Source: Paecilomyces variotii (Eukaryota). Taken from it: a DNA stretch of 64,000 nucleotides. The position numbers and the translations under genes were made by a program. The first letter of the stretch is position 1. Every line of letters begins with the position of its first letter. The notes beneath the pieces are model-generated. The model was given only the letters and a program-made list of their open reading frames with translations. It did not search any database and was not told the origin of the DNA. The DNA lies in NCBI GenBank assembly GCA_004022145.1, contig RCNU01000002.1, one strand, 5' to 3'. Of the stretch, positions 36,750 to 44,486 are shown piece by piece.

Positions 36750-39700
36750 ATGGCTGGTTCGAGCGGCGCGTCATCGATCTCGGTGACGGTCAGAGTCCGG
36801 CCGTTTACGATTCGAGAGGCTGCACAGCTTGCAAAATGCGACGATGGACCACTGTTTCTTGGGGACGGCTCCCTAGCTGGCGTTCCCACCCCGAAACTCA
36901 CCCAGAAAGGCATCAGACCTGTGGTCAAAGTCATCGACGATAAGTGCCTGTATGTCCATCTCCTACTGACGTGTCGGCGTGGAACTGACTTCCTTCCAGT
37001 GTCTTCGACCCACCTGAAGACAACCCCGTCCACAAATTCTCCAAGAGCGTCATCCCCAACGGAAAGCGTGTCAAGGATCAGACATTCTGCTTTGACCGCA
37101 TCTTCGACGAGAACGCGTCCCAGGGCGAAGTGTATGAAGCTACCAGTCGAAGCCTCCTCGATAGTGTACTTGACGGATACAATGCCACCGTTTTCGCCTA
37201 TGGAGCAACGGGATGCGGAAAGACGCACACTATCACTGGAACCGCCCAGCAGCCAGGAATCATCTTCCTCACCATGCAGGAGCTCTTCGAACGTATACAG
37301 GAGAGATCGGAAGAGAAGGTGACAGAGGTTTCCCTGTCATATCTCGAGATATACAACGAAACCATCCGTGACTTGCTGGTTCCGGGAGGCAGTAAAGGCG
37401 GACTTATGTTGCGTGAAGATGCCAATCAATCTGTCTCTGTGGCGGGACTATCAAGTCACCACCCGCAAAACGTGCAGGAAGTCATGGACATGATAATGAA
37501 GGGCAACGAATGTCGAACCATGTCTCCAACCGAGGCGAACGCAACTTCTTCCAGATCTCATGCCGTTCTCCAGATTAATGTCGCCCAGAAAGACCGCAAT
37601 GCAGATGTCAATGAACCGCACACGATGGCTACCCTCAGTATTATTGATCTTGCAGGGAGTGAGAGAGCTAGTGCCACTAAGAATCGTGGAGAGAGGCTCT
37701 TAGAAGGTGCAAATATCAACAAGTCACTGCTAGCTCTCGGCAGCTGCATCAACGCCCTTTGTGACCCACGGAAGAGAAACCATGTTCCCTACCGAAACTC
37801 GAAACTCACTCGTCTGCTGAAATTTTCTCTGGGAGGAAACTGCAGGACGGTGATGATTGTTTGCATTAGCCCCTCCAGCCAGCATTTCGACGAAACACAA
37901 AACACTCTACGATACGCGAACCGCGCAAAGAATATTCAAACGAAGGTTACGAGGAACGTGTACAACGTGAATCGACACGTGAAAGACTTCCTTGTCAAGA
38001 TTGATGAGCAGATGGCTCTGATAAATGAGCTGAAGGCACAGCAAAAGGATTACGAATCGGTAGCTTTCGCCAAATTTAGGAAGCAGAACGAAAAGAAAGA
38101 AGGTGTTATGCGGGAAGGAATCTCTCGCATTCGGAATGCGTATGAGCATTCGGCTTCTGAGAGACAGGAAAAGGCGAACAGCATGCTTAAACTGAGACAG
38201 GTGTCCCGCAGGATCGGCGTGCTGTCTTCTTGGATAGCTGCTTTCGACGGGGTGTGTGCAAACTGCGAGCGCGAGGAATCGATGTCAAATCTCCAAGCTA
38301 TTCGAAAGACGGCACAAGGTATTCTTTTTGAGCTGGAAGGGAGCCGGCAGCATTATCACCAAAAGCTGGCAAAGAATAACTGGGAGCGCGGTATCAATTC
38401 AGCGCTCGAGCATGGCATCAAGCTGCTTCAAGAATTCGAGACCAGCGACAATACCGACATCGCGAACCTGAAGCGTGAAGTAGAGCTCTTGAAGTTCACT
38501 GCTGAGCGTGAGGCCCTCACTGCTATTGCAGAACAGGAAAAGGCAGGAGACGTGGCGATCGTCCAGATGCTGCTCCAAGCTCATTTCGAGACTATTTCTT
38601 CAATCGAGAACATTATGCAGCTCAGTGAAGAAGAGGCAGTTGAAGCAGGCAAAAAAATCTTGATGAAAATGCTCAACTCATGTTCAAGCGCAACGTCAAA
38701 TGTGGTGAAGCCTGACGAAAACTTGCCTCAGATTGACTTGTCTTTCTCCCCTCCGAAACCAGCACCCGCACGCCGCAAGAAGCTCAGCCTAGCTGGACCC
38801 AATCCAGTCCTGACACTGAACACGAATACAGCAATTGCACCTCCCTTGATTTCTCCGACGAAGGGCTCACCACGTCGACGCAAGCTCGGCATCGCCAGGA
38901 AGGGTGTCAGCTTTACACCGAAGAAAGCTCAGTCTAAGACGGCGAAGAGAAGCGTCCGATGGAAAGATGATGAACAGGATGGTTCTCTGGCCGAATTCGA
39001 GAAGACGCCGCAGAAGGCGCAGCCAAATCCTGAGGTCTCTTCTGACGACACATCGCTGCTGAGAGCATCTCCAATACCACGTGCATCCCCAGCACGAGGT
39101 ATCCCAATTCCCACTCGCTTGGCCAGTCCGTCACTCGGTTCCTCGCCAATTTCTACGCCACCAGAACCGACATTGAACATTCAGAAGAACAGCAGCAGAT
39201 TCACGACTGGTTTCCTCTCCAAAAAGTCCAGCAGCTCCCCAATTCAGCCGCCAGTGGCAAGCCTCCCCTTGTCCGACAATGATGGCTCCCCACTCCGGGA
39301 TATCGAAAACAGCAGTTTCTTCAACCGCTCTTCTCACCATCGCTCTTCTCTCGACCGCCCCTCCAGGATAGCGGTGCGAACTTCTAGCGGTAGTTACACC
39401 AGCAGTCCTAGTCGCGTCTCGGATACGGAAGACAACTGGAAGACCACCAAAGCAGACGCAATAACGATCAGCGCTGCAATGAGACGAATTTCGAGTTCTC
39501 ATATCGGTAGCACAAATTCAGCCAACGTGAGCCGTGCGCACCGCCGTCGAAGCCCAACGGCGGCTTCATTGGGCACCTCTCCTAATGAGAACGCCATGTT
39601 CACGGCCTCCCAGGCTCGCAGGATGGTGAAGAGTGACAAAGAACATGACGTCAAGCCCAGCGTGCTGGGACCTCGCACTGTCCCGATCACAAAAAGCACC

Positions 39701-39850
39701 GGCCAAAGACGCACCACTCTCGGGGATATACGACCGAGAGAAGTCAGTCTGACAAGCAGGGATGCCATCAGATTGAGCACAATGGCGGCAGGGGGCACTG
39801 GCGGTTCTCGCAGCAGTCTCATGCCATCCGGCAAAGGCACTTGGAGATAG
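36750..39850 (+). CDS. kipB: Kinesin-8 family motor (KipB/Kip3)
   Basis: Exons 36750-36949 and 37000-39850; VRVRP, P-loop GATGCGKT, NATSSRSH, IDLAGSERAS, HVPYRNSKLTRLLKFSLGGNC. Confidence 0.95.
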
Positions 39851-40637: not shown

Positions 40638-41450
40638 ATGGCTTTCGCCGCATCTGCGATTGCACCGACTCTATTCTCACGCCTCTTCCGGCCTTTCTCG
40701 ACTAGCTTTCCATCCTTTTCTCTCACATCATCTGAATCGATCGCGTCGCGAAACATGTCGGACAACGCGCAGAAGGCGACCCTGGCGGCTGGTTGCTTCT
40801 GGGGAGTGGAACACTTGTATCGGAAACACTTTGGAAATGGGAAGGGACTTCTGGATGCCAAAGTTGGATATAGTGGTGGACAGAGTGATTCGCCGACTTA
40901 TCGCGCCGTGTGCTCGGGGACGACTGGTCGTATGTCTACCAATTATACTTCCTTCCCTGCTGAGATCAATTCCGTAAAATAGTTCTAACAGATATGTTCC
41001 CTTTTGCGGGGAAATAATTAGATGCCGAGTCGCTACAGATTACCTTCGATCCCTCGAAAGTCACTTATCGCCAGCTCCTAGAATTCTTCTACCGCATGCA
41101 CGACCCCACGACGGCGAACCGACAGGGTCCAGACGTTGGCACGCAGTACCGTAGTATCATTTTCACGCACAATGACGAGCAGGAGAAGACCGCGAAGGAG
41201 ATCACCGAGAAGGTTGAGAAGGAATGGTACAAGAAGCCCATAACCACGCAGATTGTGCCTGCAGGCCAGTGGTGGGATGCAGAGGAGTACCATCAGCTGT
41301 ACCTAGAGAAGAACCCTAGTGGCTATGAGTGCCCTTCTCAGTATGTGTGCCCGGATCCTTTAGGGGCTGGATATGTTGTCTGGCAGATGCTGACTGTTGA
41401 CTCCCGCGTAATATAGCTTCATTCGAGATTTCCCTCCTCTCTCGGAGTGA
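40638..41450 (+). CDS. msrA: Peptide methionine sulfoxide reductase A
   Basis: Exons 40638-40929, 41022-41340, 41417-41450; GCFWGVE active site, [25 protein letters not shown]; second in-frame ATG at 40755. Confidence 0.97.
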
Positions 41451-41834
41451 CTAGCCCCTAAACTATGATAGATGGGGCCGAAACATGACAGGGATATACC
41501 GATGCTGCCCGTTGAATGCTCCGAGGTATATAGTGATCTCGAAAGAGATGGGGAGACCAGGTTGCTTCTTACGGCGCCATATAATTGACAGTCGGTGAAG
41601 CTGTACAGGACTTGTTTACCGGAGCATTCTATCTAGCAAGTTAGCAAATTACACCTTTGTTAAGCGATAGGAAAGCTCTCTTGGTGGAAACTGGTCTGTC
41701 ATGTTGCCCAAACTCAAACAGCACCTGAGAGCCAGATATAAATACTAGTGGGCCTTTTTCTATGATCGATCAACGACATATCTCATATTCAGGGCTGTTT
41801 TCCACTGTTCATGGCAGGTGTGAAGATCCTAATC

Positions 41835-41860
41835 CATCATCATCATCATCATCATCATCA
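41835..41860. repeat. (CAT)n microsatellite
   Basis: Directly visible. Confidence 0.95.
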
Positions 41861-42408
41861 CGTGAAGTGGGCGGGAATGCTCCGATACAGTAAGACAGCG
41901 CAGACCGATAAGATCGCCCAACTACAGTTCATCGAATCAGCCGGACTGCAGTAGAATGAGGGGTATGCAGTAGCAGCGTAGTAGTGAGCCCAAAGAACGC
42001 GAATTTACTAATACATAATCCCTCCTCACGGATAAGATCCGGTGGAGACAGACTGGGTCCAGCATGCAGGGCATGTTGGGATGAGATGAGATGAACTGCT
42101 GTTCTCTGGCCACGCCCGTGGTCGATTATATCCAAAGAGATCTAAAACGATATTATATTTTCATGTTTTGTAACAGATGTTATTCTATTGAGTGATATGG
42201 ATATTTAAGCAAGGAATTGCAATATCATACTGTAGTCACAAATATTCAATCAAGGCGAGCATACCTGGGTGTTCACTGTTTCGTCATCAGTTCTACAGTA
42301 CCTAGCTAGATGAGTGTCCAACTATCGAATCTCGAGCAACCTCATCTCCTAAAATAGGAACTACATAGGTATCCGTGTTACCAAAATATTGGTCTTGAAG
42401 GTCTCCAT

Positions 42409-42929: not shown

Positions 42930-44486
42930 ATGCAAGCCATGATAAGGAACAAACCGATTCTTTTCCCTGGTCGAACCCTGACTGGCGGTGTTCAATATAT
43001 CAACCTACACGAGTCTGTCGATTGGATTAGGAACACGAGATATGTATCACACATTGCCAGCCATCGTCCTAGACGATCCTATGTCCCGAATTCAAATCTT
43101 CTTTCGATAAGGAGATCACACGTGGAAGTACGGACACCTACTCTTGAACGCAGCAAGAAAGAAAATCCGCTTTCTATCCTACCTCTCAGTTCCGTTATCA
43201 GATCATTGTTAGTTACGACGGTTTCTTCTTCTCCAGTCTTGCTGTCACCATGCATGCGGTTGTTGTCATTTTTGGCCGGTTCAAAATCAGCTTTGCTGGA
43301 CCCCGACAGAAATTCTCTCTTGAGATATATTCTCTCAAAGACAGTCTATACCCAATTTTGTGCTGGTGGGACTCCGCAGGAAGTCAAGGCATATATCCAG
43401 AACCTGAAGAGCAGGGGTTACACAGGAGTTATTCTCGGATATGCAAAAGAGGTTGTGATGGATGAAGATGAAACAAGTGTCAGTGGGGTGTCTATAACAG
43501 GAAGGATTGAAGATGCTGCCGAGGAGCAAAAGAATGTACGGGAGATCCTTGAATGGAAAAACGGAACCATGAAAACTGTCGAACTGGCAGATGAAGGTGA
43601 TTTTGTGGCTTTGAAGTTCACAGGTGCTGGTAAGCAAGCCTTGCAGCATTTGCTCCGCAAGCTACCTCCTTCACCCCAGCTGGAAAAGGCCATCATCGAG
43701 ATATGCGACACGGCGAAGCGGCGTAATGTCAGGTTACTGTTTGATGCCGAACAGCAGGCGCTGCAACACGCAATTGACGAATGGACACTCGAGTTCCAAC
43801 GTAGATACAACAAAAAGGAGGAGCCGCGTGCGTTGATATACGGAACTTATCAGGCATATCTGCTCTCGACGCCAGCAGTCCTTGGCCGTCACCTGGAAGC
43901 GGCGCAAAGAGAAGGGTTTATCCTAGGTGTGAAACTCGTCAGAGGTGCATATATAGGCAGCGATCCAAGGCATCTAATATGTCGGACAAAGGAAGAGACG
44001 GACAGACAATACGATGGTATCGCAAACTCATTGATCACGAGAAGGTATGGTGAAATCCTTCGTGCGCCTGCAGAATTATCGACAACCGGTGCCAACCAAG
44101 GACCATTTCCGTTCCCTCGTGCGGACCTCATCCTTGCAACTCATAACCGCGCCTCAGTCAAGAAAGCAAGAGCTATCCGTGATCAACAAGTCCGCGAAGG
44201 CCAACCTTTGATTGAGATGGGATATGGCCAACTGCAGGGAATGGCAGATGACATCAGCTGCGAACTTGTCGAAGAAGGGAAAGAAGCGCGCGAGAGCCAT
44301 GTCCTAGATGGGGAAGTTCCAAGGGTGTATAAGTATCTCGTCTGGGGTACTGTTGGGGAATGCATGGAGTACCTGGTTCGCAGAGCGCAGGAGAATAAAG
44401 ACGCTGTTTCAAGGACAATGGATACCAGAAATGCGATGTCAACAGAATTGAAACGGAGAGTTTTGAGAGTCAGCAAGAGACCATGA
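42930..44486 (+). CDS. prnD: Proline dehydrogenase (proline oxidase; PrnD/Put1 family)
   Basis: Intronless 518 aa; Y.QFCAG, ALKFTG, LLFDAEQ, TYQAYL, GVKLVRGAY, ATHN, GQLQGMAD, YLVRRAQEN. Confidence 0.93.
   Translation: MQAMIRNKPILFPGRTLTGGVQYINLHESVDWIRNTRYVSHIASHRPRRSYVPNSNLLSIRRSHVEVRTPTLERSKKENPLSILPLSSVIRSLLVTTVSSSPVLLSPCMRLLSFLAGSKSALLDPDRNSLLRYILSKTVYTQFCAGGTPQEVKAYIQNLKSRGYTGVILGYAKEVVMDEDETSVSGVSITGRIEDAAEEQKNVREILEWKNGTMKTVELADEGDFVALKFTGAGKQALQHLLRKLPPSPQLEKAIIEICDTAKRRNVRLLFDAEQQALQHAIDEWTLEFQRRYNKKEEPRALIYGTYQAYLLSTPAVLGRHLEAAQREGFILGVKLVRGAYIGSDPRHLICRTKEETDRQYDGIANSLITRRYGEILRAPAELSTTGANQGPFPFPRADLILATHNRASVKKARAIRDQQVREGQPLIEMGYGQLQGMADDISCELVEEGKEARESHVLDGEVPRVYKYLVWGTVGECMEYLVRRAQENKDAVSRTMDTRNAMSTELKRRVLRVSKRP

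What the first reader, a model, noticed from the sequence alone, without database searches (positions are those of the whole stretch)
41417..41468. msrA stop lies in a TGA-CTAG readthrough context that would append a peroxisomal PTS1-like tail (-LAPKL)
Seen: the last exon ends GAG TGA CTA GCC CCT AAA CTA TGA, so readthrough gives ...PPLSE-X-LAPKL*. Known: UGA CUA(G) is the efficient readthrough motif that generates cryptic peroxisomal isoforms in fungi (e.g. PGK) and animals (MDH1, LDHB), and PKL is a recognised non-canonical PTS1 variant. Inference: a minor peroxisomal MsrA isoform repairs oxidised methionines in the H2O2-producing organelle. None of the other stops I checked in this window has this context. 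I do not know whether this has been reported for fungal MsrA.
Basis: partly seen in the sequence, partly recalled or inferred. Interest (0 to 1): 0.85.

Follow-up and report, generated by a model that had tools for sequence, protein, structure and literature searches.

The report
Hidden peroxisome tag behind msrA stop
A mould's gene for the enzyme that repairs oxidised methionine ends in a leaky stop codon followed by five codons spelling a peroxisome address tag, and distant relatives keep the same arrangement, so a small share of the enzyme is probably sent to peroxisomes.

Summary
A three-exon fungal msrA (PMSR domain; splice sites and poly(A) ends confirmed by RNA contigs of three studies) ends ...FPPLSE TGA CTA G, then CCC-less five codons L-A-P-K-L and a second TGA, all inside the mature 3' UTR. 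The heptamer TGACTAG itself is not enriched in the window. What makes it real is conservation: among 59 distinct fungal msrA 3' ends recovered from metagenome contigs plus the window, 9 have an in-frame extension ending in [K/R]-L-stop, against 1.3% of control ORF ends in the same UTRs. All 9 have TGA followed by C; 9 of 11 TGA-C ends carry the tail, 0 of 47 others do. Four Penicillium-like or Eurotiales-like orthologues, two of them syntenic, keep a 5-6 codon tail (LGSRL, LGPRL, LSQKL, LLANKL). They do so through synonymous Leu and K/R swaps, although synonymous sites are near saturation. -PKL and -PRL work as PTS1 in the Eurotiomycete Histoplasma (published). Readthrough and peroxisomal import were not measured. 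The phylogeny-corrected test was underpowered, several -3 residues are non-canonical, and no Aspergillus DNA could be examined. I found no paper on a peroxisomal MsrA. Verdict: probably a new cargo of the known readthrough-PTS1 mechanism.

The parts
40638..40929 (+). msrA exon 1, coding part. First ATG at 40638. A 39-codon N-terminal presequence (mitochondrial-type by composition, inferred). Second in-frame ATG at 40755-40757, then the GCFWG catalytic motif.
   Evidence: PMSR 1.1e-14. Exon end at 40929 from RNA joints. Presequence conserved in Eurotiomycete proteins.
40930..41021 (+). Intron 1 (92 nt, GT..AG)
   Evidence: Joint 40929>41022 in RNA contigs of X20, X17 and X19.
41022..41340 (+). 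msrA exon 2, the bulk of the PMSR domain
   Evidence: Pfam PF01625 1.6e-40; RNA joints; 83% identity to the best fungal MsrA.
41341..41416 (+). Intron 2 (76 nt, GT..AG), splitting the His codon of CPSH
   Evidence: Joint 41340>41417 in X20, X17 and X19. The same intron position is seen in L001, L002, L003 and L006.
41417..41447 (+). Last coding mini-exon: (H)[10 protein letters not shown], the conserved MsrA C-terminus
   Evidence: most of the 120 fungal MsrA proteins end ...HF[VIL]RxFPPLS[EDA].
41448..41450 (+). First stop, TGA (proposed leaky stop)
   Evidence: TGA in all 9 Eurotiomycete-like lineages with DNA.
41451..41454 (+). CTAG: the +4 to +7 readthrough context
   Evidence: CTA invariant in WIN, L002, L003 and L006; CTG CTA in L001. 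Published context UGA CU(A)(G) (PMC4207609).
41451..41465 (+). Readthrough extension L-A-P-K-L, with a PTS1-like C-terminal tripeptide PKL
   Evidence: Homologous tails are LGSRL, LSQKL, LGPRL and LLANKL. -PKL is sufficient for import in Histoplasma.
41466..41471 (+). Second stop TGA (41466-41468) and a third in-frame stop TAG. The TAG is TGG in other strains (41470 A>G).
   Evidence: table 3.
41472..41765 (+). Rest of the 3' UTR. Poly(A) tails follow 41667, 41674 and 41765.
   Evidence: Loose ends of A-runs in X17 and X19 contigs (table 7). No significant RNA fold in 41440-41540 (z -0.52).

Best explanation
This is the orthologue of fungal methionine-S-sulfoxide reductase A. Its normal stop, UGA followed by CUAG, is a weak terminator. 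A few per cent of ribosomes (figure inferred from published cases) insert an amino acid at UGA, translate five more codons and stop at the next UGA. The result is MsrA-X-L-A-P-K-L. The new C-terminal tripeptide PKL is a weak type-1 peroxisomal targeting signal. It would be read by Pex5, so a minor fraction of MsrA enters the peroxisomal matrix while the bulk stays cytosolic or, via the N-terminal presequence, mitochondrial. Shown here: the gene model, the presence of the extension in mature mRNA, and conservation of stop context, frame, tail length and terminal [K/R]-L across deeply diverged orthologues. Inferred: readthrough itself, import, and a repair role in the H2O2-producing organelle.
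For: (1) Sequence and gene model.
(2) The extension lies in the mRNA. RNA contigs run unbroken from 41417 to 41554-41667, with poly(A) after 41667, 41674 and 41765, and show no alternative joint.
(3) Orthologues. L002 reads TGACTAGGTTCTAGATTGTGA (LGSRL), L003 TGACTAAGCCAAAAACTATGA (LSQKL), L006 TGACTAGGGCCACGATTGTGA (LGPRL) and L001 TGACTGCTAGCGAATAAGCTGTAG (LLANKL). The window reads TGACTAGCCCCTAAACTATGA.
(4) The last Leu uses CTA, TTG or CTG and the basic residue uses AAA, AGA, CGA or AAG. The peptide and both stops are kept, not the nucleotides. Third-position identity in exon 2 is only 0.47-0.61.
(5) L001-L003 are 91-98% identical over 102 aa to named Penicillium MsrAs. L006 shares the kinesin-msrA-proline dehydrogenase gene order, and L003 shares the kinesin.
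(6) Statistics. 9 of 58 extensions end in [KR]L, against 8 of 601 control ORF ends in the same UTRs (binomial 7.8e-8). 5 of 58 against 6 of 601 match the published PTS1 pattern (p 2.9e-4).
(7) Link to context. 9 of 11 TGA-C ends have the tail against 0 of 47 others (Fisher 5e-9). After collapsing to 33 clusters at 80% nucleotide identity the counts are 7 of 9 against 0 of 24 (p 8e-6).
(8) Literature. UGA CU(A)(G) suffices for readthrough in Ustilago and HeLa, and the authors' PTS1 pattern includes PKL, NKL, GKL, PRL and SRL (PMC4207609 passages). -PKL is sufficient and -PRL partly sufficient for peroxisomal targeting in Histoplasma (PMC13343957 passages). A. nidulans GAPDH uses readthrough (PMC12316961 passage).
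Against: - No direct measurement of readthrough or localisation.
- The -3 residue varies (P, S, Q, P, N, G, L, G, E). 4 of the 9 tails (QKL, GRL, LKL, EKL) are outside the published search pattern, so some may be poor or non-functional signals.
- Two Eurotiomycete-like lineages lack the tail (L005: TGA CCG, 18-aa tail ending STA; L011: TGA TTG, LASLGME). Two Onygenales-like ones have LKCSL and LKCPL.
- The phylogeny-aware test had only 2 independent pairs on supported branches and cannot reach significance. The 102-aa tree is largely unresolved.
- Taxon labels of loci rest on similarity over 102 aa only.
- No Aspergillus or Talaromyces DNA could be examined.
- None of the 120 closest fungal MsrA proteins has a canonical native PTS1; only P0069 ends -SKI.
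- The conserved N-terminal presequence could outcompete a weak PTS1.
- The main text of the Histoplasma peroxisome proteome paper does not mention methionine at all (0 occurrences; supplements closed).
- A reductant for MsrA inside peroxisomes is not known to me (recalled).
Confidence: 0.65

Rival explanations
1. The conserved extension is translated by readthrough but serves something other than peroxisomal import. Examples: a short fail-safe tail whose second stop limits damage from a leaky UGA, a stability or degradation signal for mis-terminated protein, or another C-terminal recognition motif.
For: - Non-canonical and variable -3 residues; 4 of 9 tails fall outside the published PTS1 pattern.
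- The second stop sits at a fixed short distance in Eurotiales-like lineages.
- The Onygenales-like lineages L013 and L018 also have a 5-codon tail plus TGA but no basic residue at -2.
Against: - A fail-safe stop does not explain why the last two residues stay [K/R]-L through synonymous and K/R changes. It also does not explain why unrelated 15-21 codon tails in Sordariomycete-like lineages end the same way.
- The only function known to me for a C-terminal x-[K/R]-L is PTS1.
- -PKL and -PRL have been tested as PTS1 in a Eurotiomycete.
Confidence: 0.17
2. Chance: an ordinary stop that happens to sit in a TGA CTAG context with a PTS1-like tripeptide downstream. No meaningful readthrough and no selection.
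For: - TGACTAG is not enriched in the window (5 against 7.97 expected).
- No stimulatory RNA structure downstream (z -0.52).
- PKL is a weak, permissive match.
- The phylogeny-corrected test was underpowered.
Against: - Conservation in four other Eurotiales-like lineages with near-saturated synonymous sites.
- 9 of 58 against 1.3% background for [KR]L ends.
- A strict link to TGA-C that survives collapsing of close relatives.
Confidence: 0.1
3. The conservation reflects an RNA-level element in the 3' UTR (a binding site for a regulator or a processing signal) rather than a translated peptide.
For: CTA directly after the stop is invariant at the nucleotide level in four lineages.
Against: - Nucleotide identity of the extension (0.54-0.79) is barely above that of the next 100 nt (0.51-0.64).
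- What is kept is the frame, the two stops and the encoded L-small-x-[K/R]-L, with Leu as CTA, TTG or CTG and K/R as AAA, AGA, CGA or AAG.
- No significant fold.
Confidence: 0.05

Closest known systems
Readthrough-derived cryptic PTS1 isoforms of fungal metabolic enzymes: Ustilago maydis Pgk1, Tpi1, Rpe1 and Art1; Aspergillus nidulans GAPDH. Sources: Freitag 2012 (not held, recalled and as quoted in PMC12316961 and PMC9549241) and Stiebler 2014 (PMC4207609, passages read).
   Same: UGA followed by CU(A)(G); a short in-frame extension ending in a PTS1 tripeptide and a stop; patchy but recurrent distribution among fungi; a minor peroxisomal isoform of a mainly cytosolic enzyme.
   Different: The cargo is a protein-repair and antioxidant enzyme, not a glycolytic, pentose-phosphate or NAD(P)H-shuttle enzyme. 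The tail is only 5 residues. The tripeptides are mostly weak variants. Nothing has been tested experimentally.
Human LDHB and MDH1 readthrough isoforms (PMC4359377 abstract; PMC4207609 passages; PMC5133446 abstract)
   Same: The UGA CUA G context, a hidden PTS1, a low-percentage isoform, and conservation of context plus signal across a large clade.
   Different: Animal rather than fungal; a role in redox shuttling; readthrough rates and import have been measured there.
Ptc5-type proteins that carry both an N-terminal mitochondrial presequence and a C-terminal PTS1 (PMC7217942 abstract; PMC9549241 passages)
   Same: MsrA here has a conserved N-terminal presequence and, after readthrough, a PTS1-like end. 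Competing or sequential mitochondrial and peroxisomal sorting is conceivable.
   Different: Ptc5's PTS1 is constitutive, and its route through mitochondria depends on a transmembrane segment and Imp1 processing. Neither is evident here.
Weak PTS1s of Eurotiomycete proteins: Histoplasma catalase CatP (-PRL) and a -PKL protein (PMC13343957, passages)
   Same: The same tripeptides as the window (PKL) and L006 (PRL). -PKL is sufficient for import and -PRL gives partial import.
   Different: Those signals are at the normal C-terminus, not behind a stop codon.
Dual mitochondrial/cytosolic MsrA of mammals and cytosolic Mxr1 of yeast (recalled, not from a call)
   Same: The same enzyme family (PF01625), and one gene supplying more than one compartment.
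   Different: No peroxisomal form is known to me. The yeast-like locus L080 ends YLREM-TAG with a 2-codon tail.

Membership tests
MsrA / PMSR (PF01625) | PMSR domain match above Pfam's gathering score | tested here: met
   Exon 1 part 55.4 bits and exon 2 part 139.2 bits, against a cut-off of 23.7.
MsrA / PMSR (PF01625) | Catalytic GCFWG motif and the C-terminal GYxCP Cys region, as in fungal orthologues | tested here: met
   AAGCFWG in exon 1. GYECPSH spans exon 2 and exon 3. The tail matches those of the fungal MsrAs.
Functional translational readthrough giving a cryptic PTS1 | UGA stop followed by CU, ideally CUA G | tested here: met
   TGA CTA G at 41448-41454. The definition comes from PMC4207609.
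Functional translational readthrough giving a cryptic PTS1 | The in-frame extension ends in a PTS1 tripeptide directly before the next stop | tested here: met
   LAPKL-TGA. PKL is in the Stiebler search pattern. -PKL is sufficient in Histoplasma. No PTS1 predictor was available, so the 12-residue context was not scored.
Functional translational readthrough giving a cryptic PTS1 | Stop context and hidden signal conserved in orthologues | tested here: met
   4 further Eurotiales-like and 4 Sordariomycete-like lineages. 9 of 11 TGA-C ends against 0 of 47 others. Exceptions are L005 and L018. The phylogeny-corrected test was underpowered.
Functional translational readthrough giving a cryptic PTS1 | The extension lies within the mature mRNA and is not removed or bypassed by splicing | tested here: met
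   RNA contigs of 3 studies cover 41417 to 41554-41667 without a joint, with poly(A) downstream.
Functional translational readthrough giving a cryptic PTS1 | Measured readthrough (reporter, ribosome footprints or peptides across the stop) | not testable with these tools
   Only assembled RNA contigs were on hand. No ribosome profiling or proteomics.
Functional translational readthrough giving a cryptic PTS1 | Pex5-dependent import of the extended isoform into peroxisomes | not testable with these tools
   Needs microscopy or fractionation. No complex prediction was attempted, because the tail-bearing exon has under 30 residues and fungal Pex5 was not on hand.

The most novel reading that the evidence does not exclude
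One msrA gene in Eurotiales, and in part of the Sordariomycetes, supplies three compartments. The conserved N-terminal presequence sends it to mitochondria. The internal AUG or the unprocessed form serves the cytosol. UGA readthrough to an x-[K/R]-L tail sends it to peroxisomes. This would be the first dedicated protein-repair (methionine sulfoxide reductase) activity assigned to the peroxisomal matrix, and it would be old enough to be shared by Penicillium-like and Sordariomycete-like lineages.
Probability: 0.4. Interest if true: 0.75.

Novelty: new member of a known kind. Interest (0 to 1): 0.62.

Why it matters
Peroxisomes make H2O2, yet how their matrix proteins are repaired rather than degraded is poorly known. 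I found no paper describing a peroxisomal methionine sulfoxide reductase. The searches were: 56 papers held at least 3 of the 4 terms, and none of the 25 listed held the enzyme's name; 13 papers, none relevant; six phrases, 0 papers. If the hidden tail works, MsrA joins the short list of readthrough-made peroxisomal isoforms and extends that list from core metabolism to oxidative-damage repair. The case is directly testable in Penicillium and related moulds with standard reporters. It also shows that routine annotation misses both the 11-codon last exon (16 of 120 public models stop at ...CPxQ) and the functional tail behind the stop.

Tried and rejected
- Own genome: none is held, so there is no genome-wide count of TGA-CTA stops or of hidden PTS1s.
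- Genome-contig scan: the 80 loci carry bacterial or archaeal MAG or isolate titles. I did not analyse them further and did not use them.
- Enrichment of TGACTAG in the window: none. The other four sites are not gene ends with PTS1-like tails.
- Downstream RNA structure as a readthrough stimulator: none (z -0.52).
- Phylogeny-aware association test: only 2 independent pairs on supported branches, so it is uninformative. The tree of 102 columns is mostly unresolved.
- Native PTS1 in MsrA homologues: none of the 120 closest has one, except P0069 (-SKI). Of 149 further representatives, 5 end in a pattern or [KR][LIM] match. Only P0124 (-SSL) and P0250 (-QKL) look eukaryotic. L061 ends -GKL natively. 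This is too sporadic to weigh.
- Selenocysteine at the UGA: considered and dropped. Fungi lack that machinery as far as I recall, and the site lies after the conserved C-terminus.
- Alternative splicing that would bypass the stop: no such joint in the RNA contigs. Contigs can miss rare forms. The X15 contig is unspliced and says nothing either way.
- Earlier notes of this scan: nothing relevant.
- Freitag 2012 (Nature) is not held. Supplementary tables of Stiebler 2014 and of the Histoplasma proteome are closed and could list MsrA.
- Complex prediction with Pex5: not attempted.

Full report
**Observation.** The window between 40.5 and 41.8 kb holds a three-exon gene on the + strand. Its two large exons match Pfam PMSR (PF01625) at 1.1e-14 and 1.6e-40. 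Translation of 41418-41471 gives [15 protein letters not shown]. The codons are GAG, TGA (41448-41450), CTA GCC CCT AAA CTA, TGA (41466-41468), then TAG.

**Gene model and transcript.** No whole genome is held for this window. Twenty public runs hold the stretch. I laid four RNA runs on it.
- Contigs of X20, X17 and X19 (three studies) join 40929 to 41022 and 41340 to 41417, both with GT..AG ends. The introns are therefore 40930-41021 and 41341-41416, and the last exon starts at 41417.
- The CDS is 40638-40929 + 41022-41340 + 41417-41447, which makes 214 codons.
- The contigs continue unbroken past both stops to 41554-41667. Runs of A follow 41667, 41674 and 41765. The five extra codons therefore lie inside the mature 3' UTR.
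- No other joint was seen, though contigs can miss rare forms. The X15 contig is unspliced and uninformative.
- Strain variants in these runs leave 41448-41468 untouched. The nearest is 41470 A>G, just after the second stop.

**Is the motif alone unusual?** No. TGACTAG occurs 5 times in the window against 7.97 expected. The other four sites do not close genes with PTS1-like tails. The 100 nt around the stop have no unusual RNA fold (z -0.52).

**Protein relatives.** With exon 2 as query, 5742 proteins scored E <= 1e-20 among 8000 candidates, and the best 120 were listed.
- The closest are 83% identical. The closest named one is Talaromyces atroroseus, followed by Penicillium and Aspergillus species.
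- Most of the 120 end ...CP[AS]HF[VIL]RxFPPLS[EDA], which confirms the 11-codon last exon.
- 16 of the 120 public models stop at ...CPxQ, meaning they miss that exon.
- None has a canonical native PTS1. P0069 (named Sphaerosporella brunnea) ends -SKI.

**Orthologous DNA.** A scan of metagenome contigs found 305 relatives and kept the best 80. I located the conserved C-terminus in each locus and read on past the stop. Together with the window this gives 59 distinct fungal 3' ends. The remaining loci were bacterial or had no recognisable end.
- window: TGACTAGCCCCTAAACTATGA (LAPKL)
- L002: TGACTAGGTTCTAGATTGTGA (LGSRL)
- L003 (same as L004): TGACTAAGCCAAAAACTATGA (LSQKL)
- L006 (same as L007, L008, L009): TGACTAGGGCCACGATTGTGA (LGPRL)
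- L001: TGACTGCTAGCGAATAAGCTGTAG (LLANKL)

L001, L002 and L003 are 98%, 91% and 95-97% identical over 102 residues to Penicillium proteins or their unnamed near relatives. L006 equals the unnamed protein P0025. L006 has the window's gene order (kinesin, msrA, proline dehydrogenase), and L003 has the kinesin. All five have the intron at the same place.

**Kind of conservation.** Third-codon-position identity in exon 2 among these five lineages is 0.47-0.61, so silent sites are close to saturation. Nucleotide identity of the extension (0.54-0.79) is hardly above that of the next 100 nt (0.51-0.64). What is kept is as follows:
- the TGA, and the CT(A/G) after it;
- the frame, and a tail of 5-6 codons;
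- a small residue at -4;
- a basic residue at -2, encoded as AAA, AGA, AAA, CGA or AAG;
- Leu at -1, encoded as CTA, TTG, CTA, TTG or CTG;
- a stop directly after it.

This is the signature of a translated peptide, not of an RNA motif.

**Wider pattern.** Four Sordariomycete-like lineages (about 80% identical to Xylariales and related named proteins) have TGA followed by C and longer, mutually unalignable tails that end the same way:
- L016: TGA CGC, 20 codons, ending ...GRL.
- L026: TGA CGC, 21 codons, ending ...LKL.
- L029: TGA CGC, 15 codons, ending ...GKL.
- L060: TGA CTG, 19 codons, ending ...EKL.

L026 and L029 are fairly close to each other (third-position identity 0.77). The others are not (0.45-0.59).

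The counts are these:
- Of the 58 extensions that end in a second stop within the locus, 9 end in [K/R]-L. L061 is left out because it has no second stop within the locus. Among control ORF ends in the same 3' regions (other frames and later stops) the figure is 8 of 601, or 1.3% (binomial 7.8e-8).
- 5 of 58 against 6 of 601 match the PTS1 search pattern of Stiebler et al. (p 2.9e-4).
- All 9 sit behind TGA-C. 9 of 11 TGA-C ends have the tail against 0 of 47 other ends (Fisher 5e-9).
- After collapsing lineages at 90, 85 or 80% nucleotide identity, the association stays at 2e-8, 2e-7 and 8e-6.

These tests ignore phylogeny. The phylogeny-aware pair test found only 2 usable pairs and is uninformative, and the 102-column tree is mostly unresolved.

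**Results against the reading.**
- L005 (TGA CCG, 18-residue tail ending STA) and L011 (TGA TTG, LASLGME) are Eurotiomycete-like and lack the signal.
- The Onygenales-like L013 and L018 have five-codon tails LKCSL and LKCPL without a basic residue.
- Four of the nine tails (QKL, GRL, LKL, EKL) are outside the published pattern. I recall that yeast Lpx1 uses -QKL, but that comes from no call.
- No Aspergillus or Talaromyces DNA could be read.
- A second scan, of prokaryote genome contigs, returned only records with bacterial or archaeal titles.

**Literature.**
- Stiebler et al. 2014 (PMC4207609, passages) show that UGA followed by CU, better CUA and often G, is enough for efficient readthrough in Ustilago and HeLa cells. 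It creates PTS1 isoforms of Tpi1, Rpe1, Art1, LDHB and MDH1. Their search pattern accepts [SATPCVNG]KL and [ASTPCE]RL.
- A passage in PMC12316961 states that A. nidulans GAPDH uses readthrough.
- In Histoplasma, a Eurotiomycete, -PKL fused to a fluorescent protein is sufficient for peroxisomal localisation. Catalase's -PRL gives partial localisation (PMC13343957, passages).
- MDH1 readthrough is about 4% (PMC5133446, abstract in the listing).
- I found no report of a peroxisomal MsrA. In one search, 56 papers held at least 3 of the 4 terms, and all 25 listed showed 0 occurrences of the enzyme's name. In one search, 13 papers held both terms and none was relevant. In one search, six phrases gave 0 papers. 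Searches added nothing.
- Freitag 2012 is not held. Supplementary tables are closed, so a listing of MsrA there cannot be excluded.

**Mechanism proposed.** Most ribosomes stop at UGA 41448 and make the 214-residue enzyme. A minority decode UGA with a near-cognate tRNA (Trp, Cys or Arg, recalled), add L-A-P-K-L and stop at 41466. The exposed -PKL end would bind Pex5 and bring that fraction into the peroxisomal matrix. There MsrA would reduce methionine-S-sulfoxide in matrix proteins or free methionine sulfoxide. The context, the transcript and the conservation are shown here. Readthrough, import and function are inferred. The conserved N-terminal presequence (...[12 protein letters not shown]...) and an internal Met in Eurotiales suggest additional mitochondrial and cytosolic forms. 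How a presequence and a weak PTS1 would compete is open. Ptc5-type sorting (PMC9549241 passages) is a precedent.

**Comparison and verdict.** This works like the known readthrough-PTS1 isoforms and meets every sequence-level criterion of that class (context, hidden signal, conservation, presence in mRNA). The two experimental criteria could not be tested. It is a new cargo of a known mechanism, not a new mechanism. I put 0.65 on the peroxisomal-isoform reading and 0.17 on a translated tail with another role. I put 0.10 on chance and 0.05 on an RNA element. Interest 0.62: a specialist would find a conserved hidden peroxisomal form of a protein-repair enzyme noteworthy, and it is readily testable.

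Noticed in passing
window 40638-40757: msrA starts with a 39-codon Ser/Arg/Phe-rich presequence (...[12 protein letters not shown]...), followed by a second in-frame ATG at 40755. The presequence is conserved in Eurotiomycete MsrAs. The internal Met is present in Eurotiales-type proteins but not in the Onygenales ones listed. This suggests mitochondrial plus cytosolic forms from one gene.
   Followed up: partly
window 36989-39850, 40638-41468 and 42930-44486; L006 and L003: The gene order is kinesin motor protein, msrA, proline dehydrogenase. It is shared with locus L006, and the kinesin also with L003. Several public Penicillium gene models (P0046, P0047, P0049, P0059, P0063) fuse the kinesin and PMSR domains, probably a merging artefact of neighbouring genes.
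   Followed up: partly
proteins P0004, P0011, P0021, P0029, P0041, P0049, P0054, P0057, P0060, P0061, P0065, P0071, P0075, P0080, P0097, P0113: 16 of the 120 closest public MsrA models end at ...CP[ASM]Q. They read into intron 2 and miss the conserved 11-codon last exon. The true stop, and therefore its context, is absent from those annotations.
   Followed up: no
L016, L026, L029 (stop at 2846, 609 and 2846 in locus coordinates): Sordariomycete-like msrA genes end TGA CGC and have 15-21 codon open extensions ending GRL, LKL or GKL. UGA CG(N) may be a second leaky context used for the same purpose. I recall UGA CGG as a plant-virus readthrough context, but did not check this.
   Followed up: partly
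L061 (native end ...DLEGKL), P0069 (...ETESKI), P0124 (...GSSSL), P0250 (...ERQKL): A few MsrA homologues carry PTS1-like tripeptides at their ordinary C-terminus. The taxa are unknown except P0069, which is named Sphaerosporella brunnea.
   Followed up: no
window 41470: An A>G difference in three metatranscriptome runs turns the third in-frame stop TAG into TGG. The first and second stops and the five codons between them are unchanged in all laid contigs.
   Followed up: no
window 41825-41867: A run of CAT repeats, read as nine or more His in the + frame of ORF 41766-41954. It lies downstream of the msrA poly(A) sites. It was flagged as a repeat by the read-laying tool. It is not known whether it is coding.
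   Followed up: no
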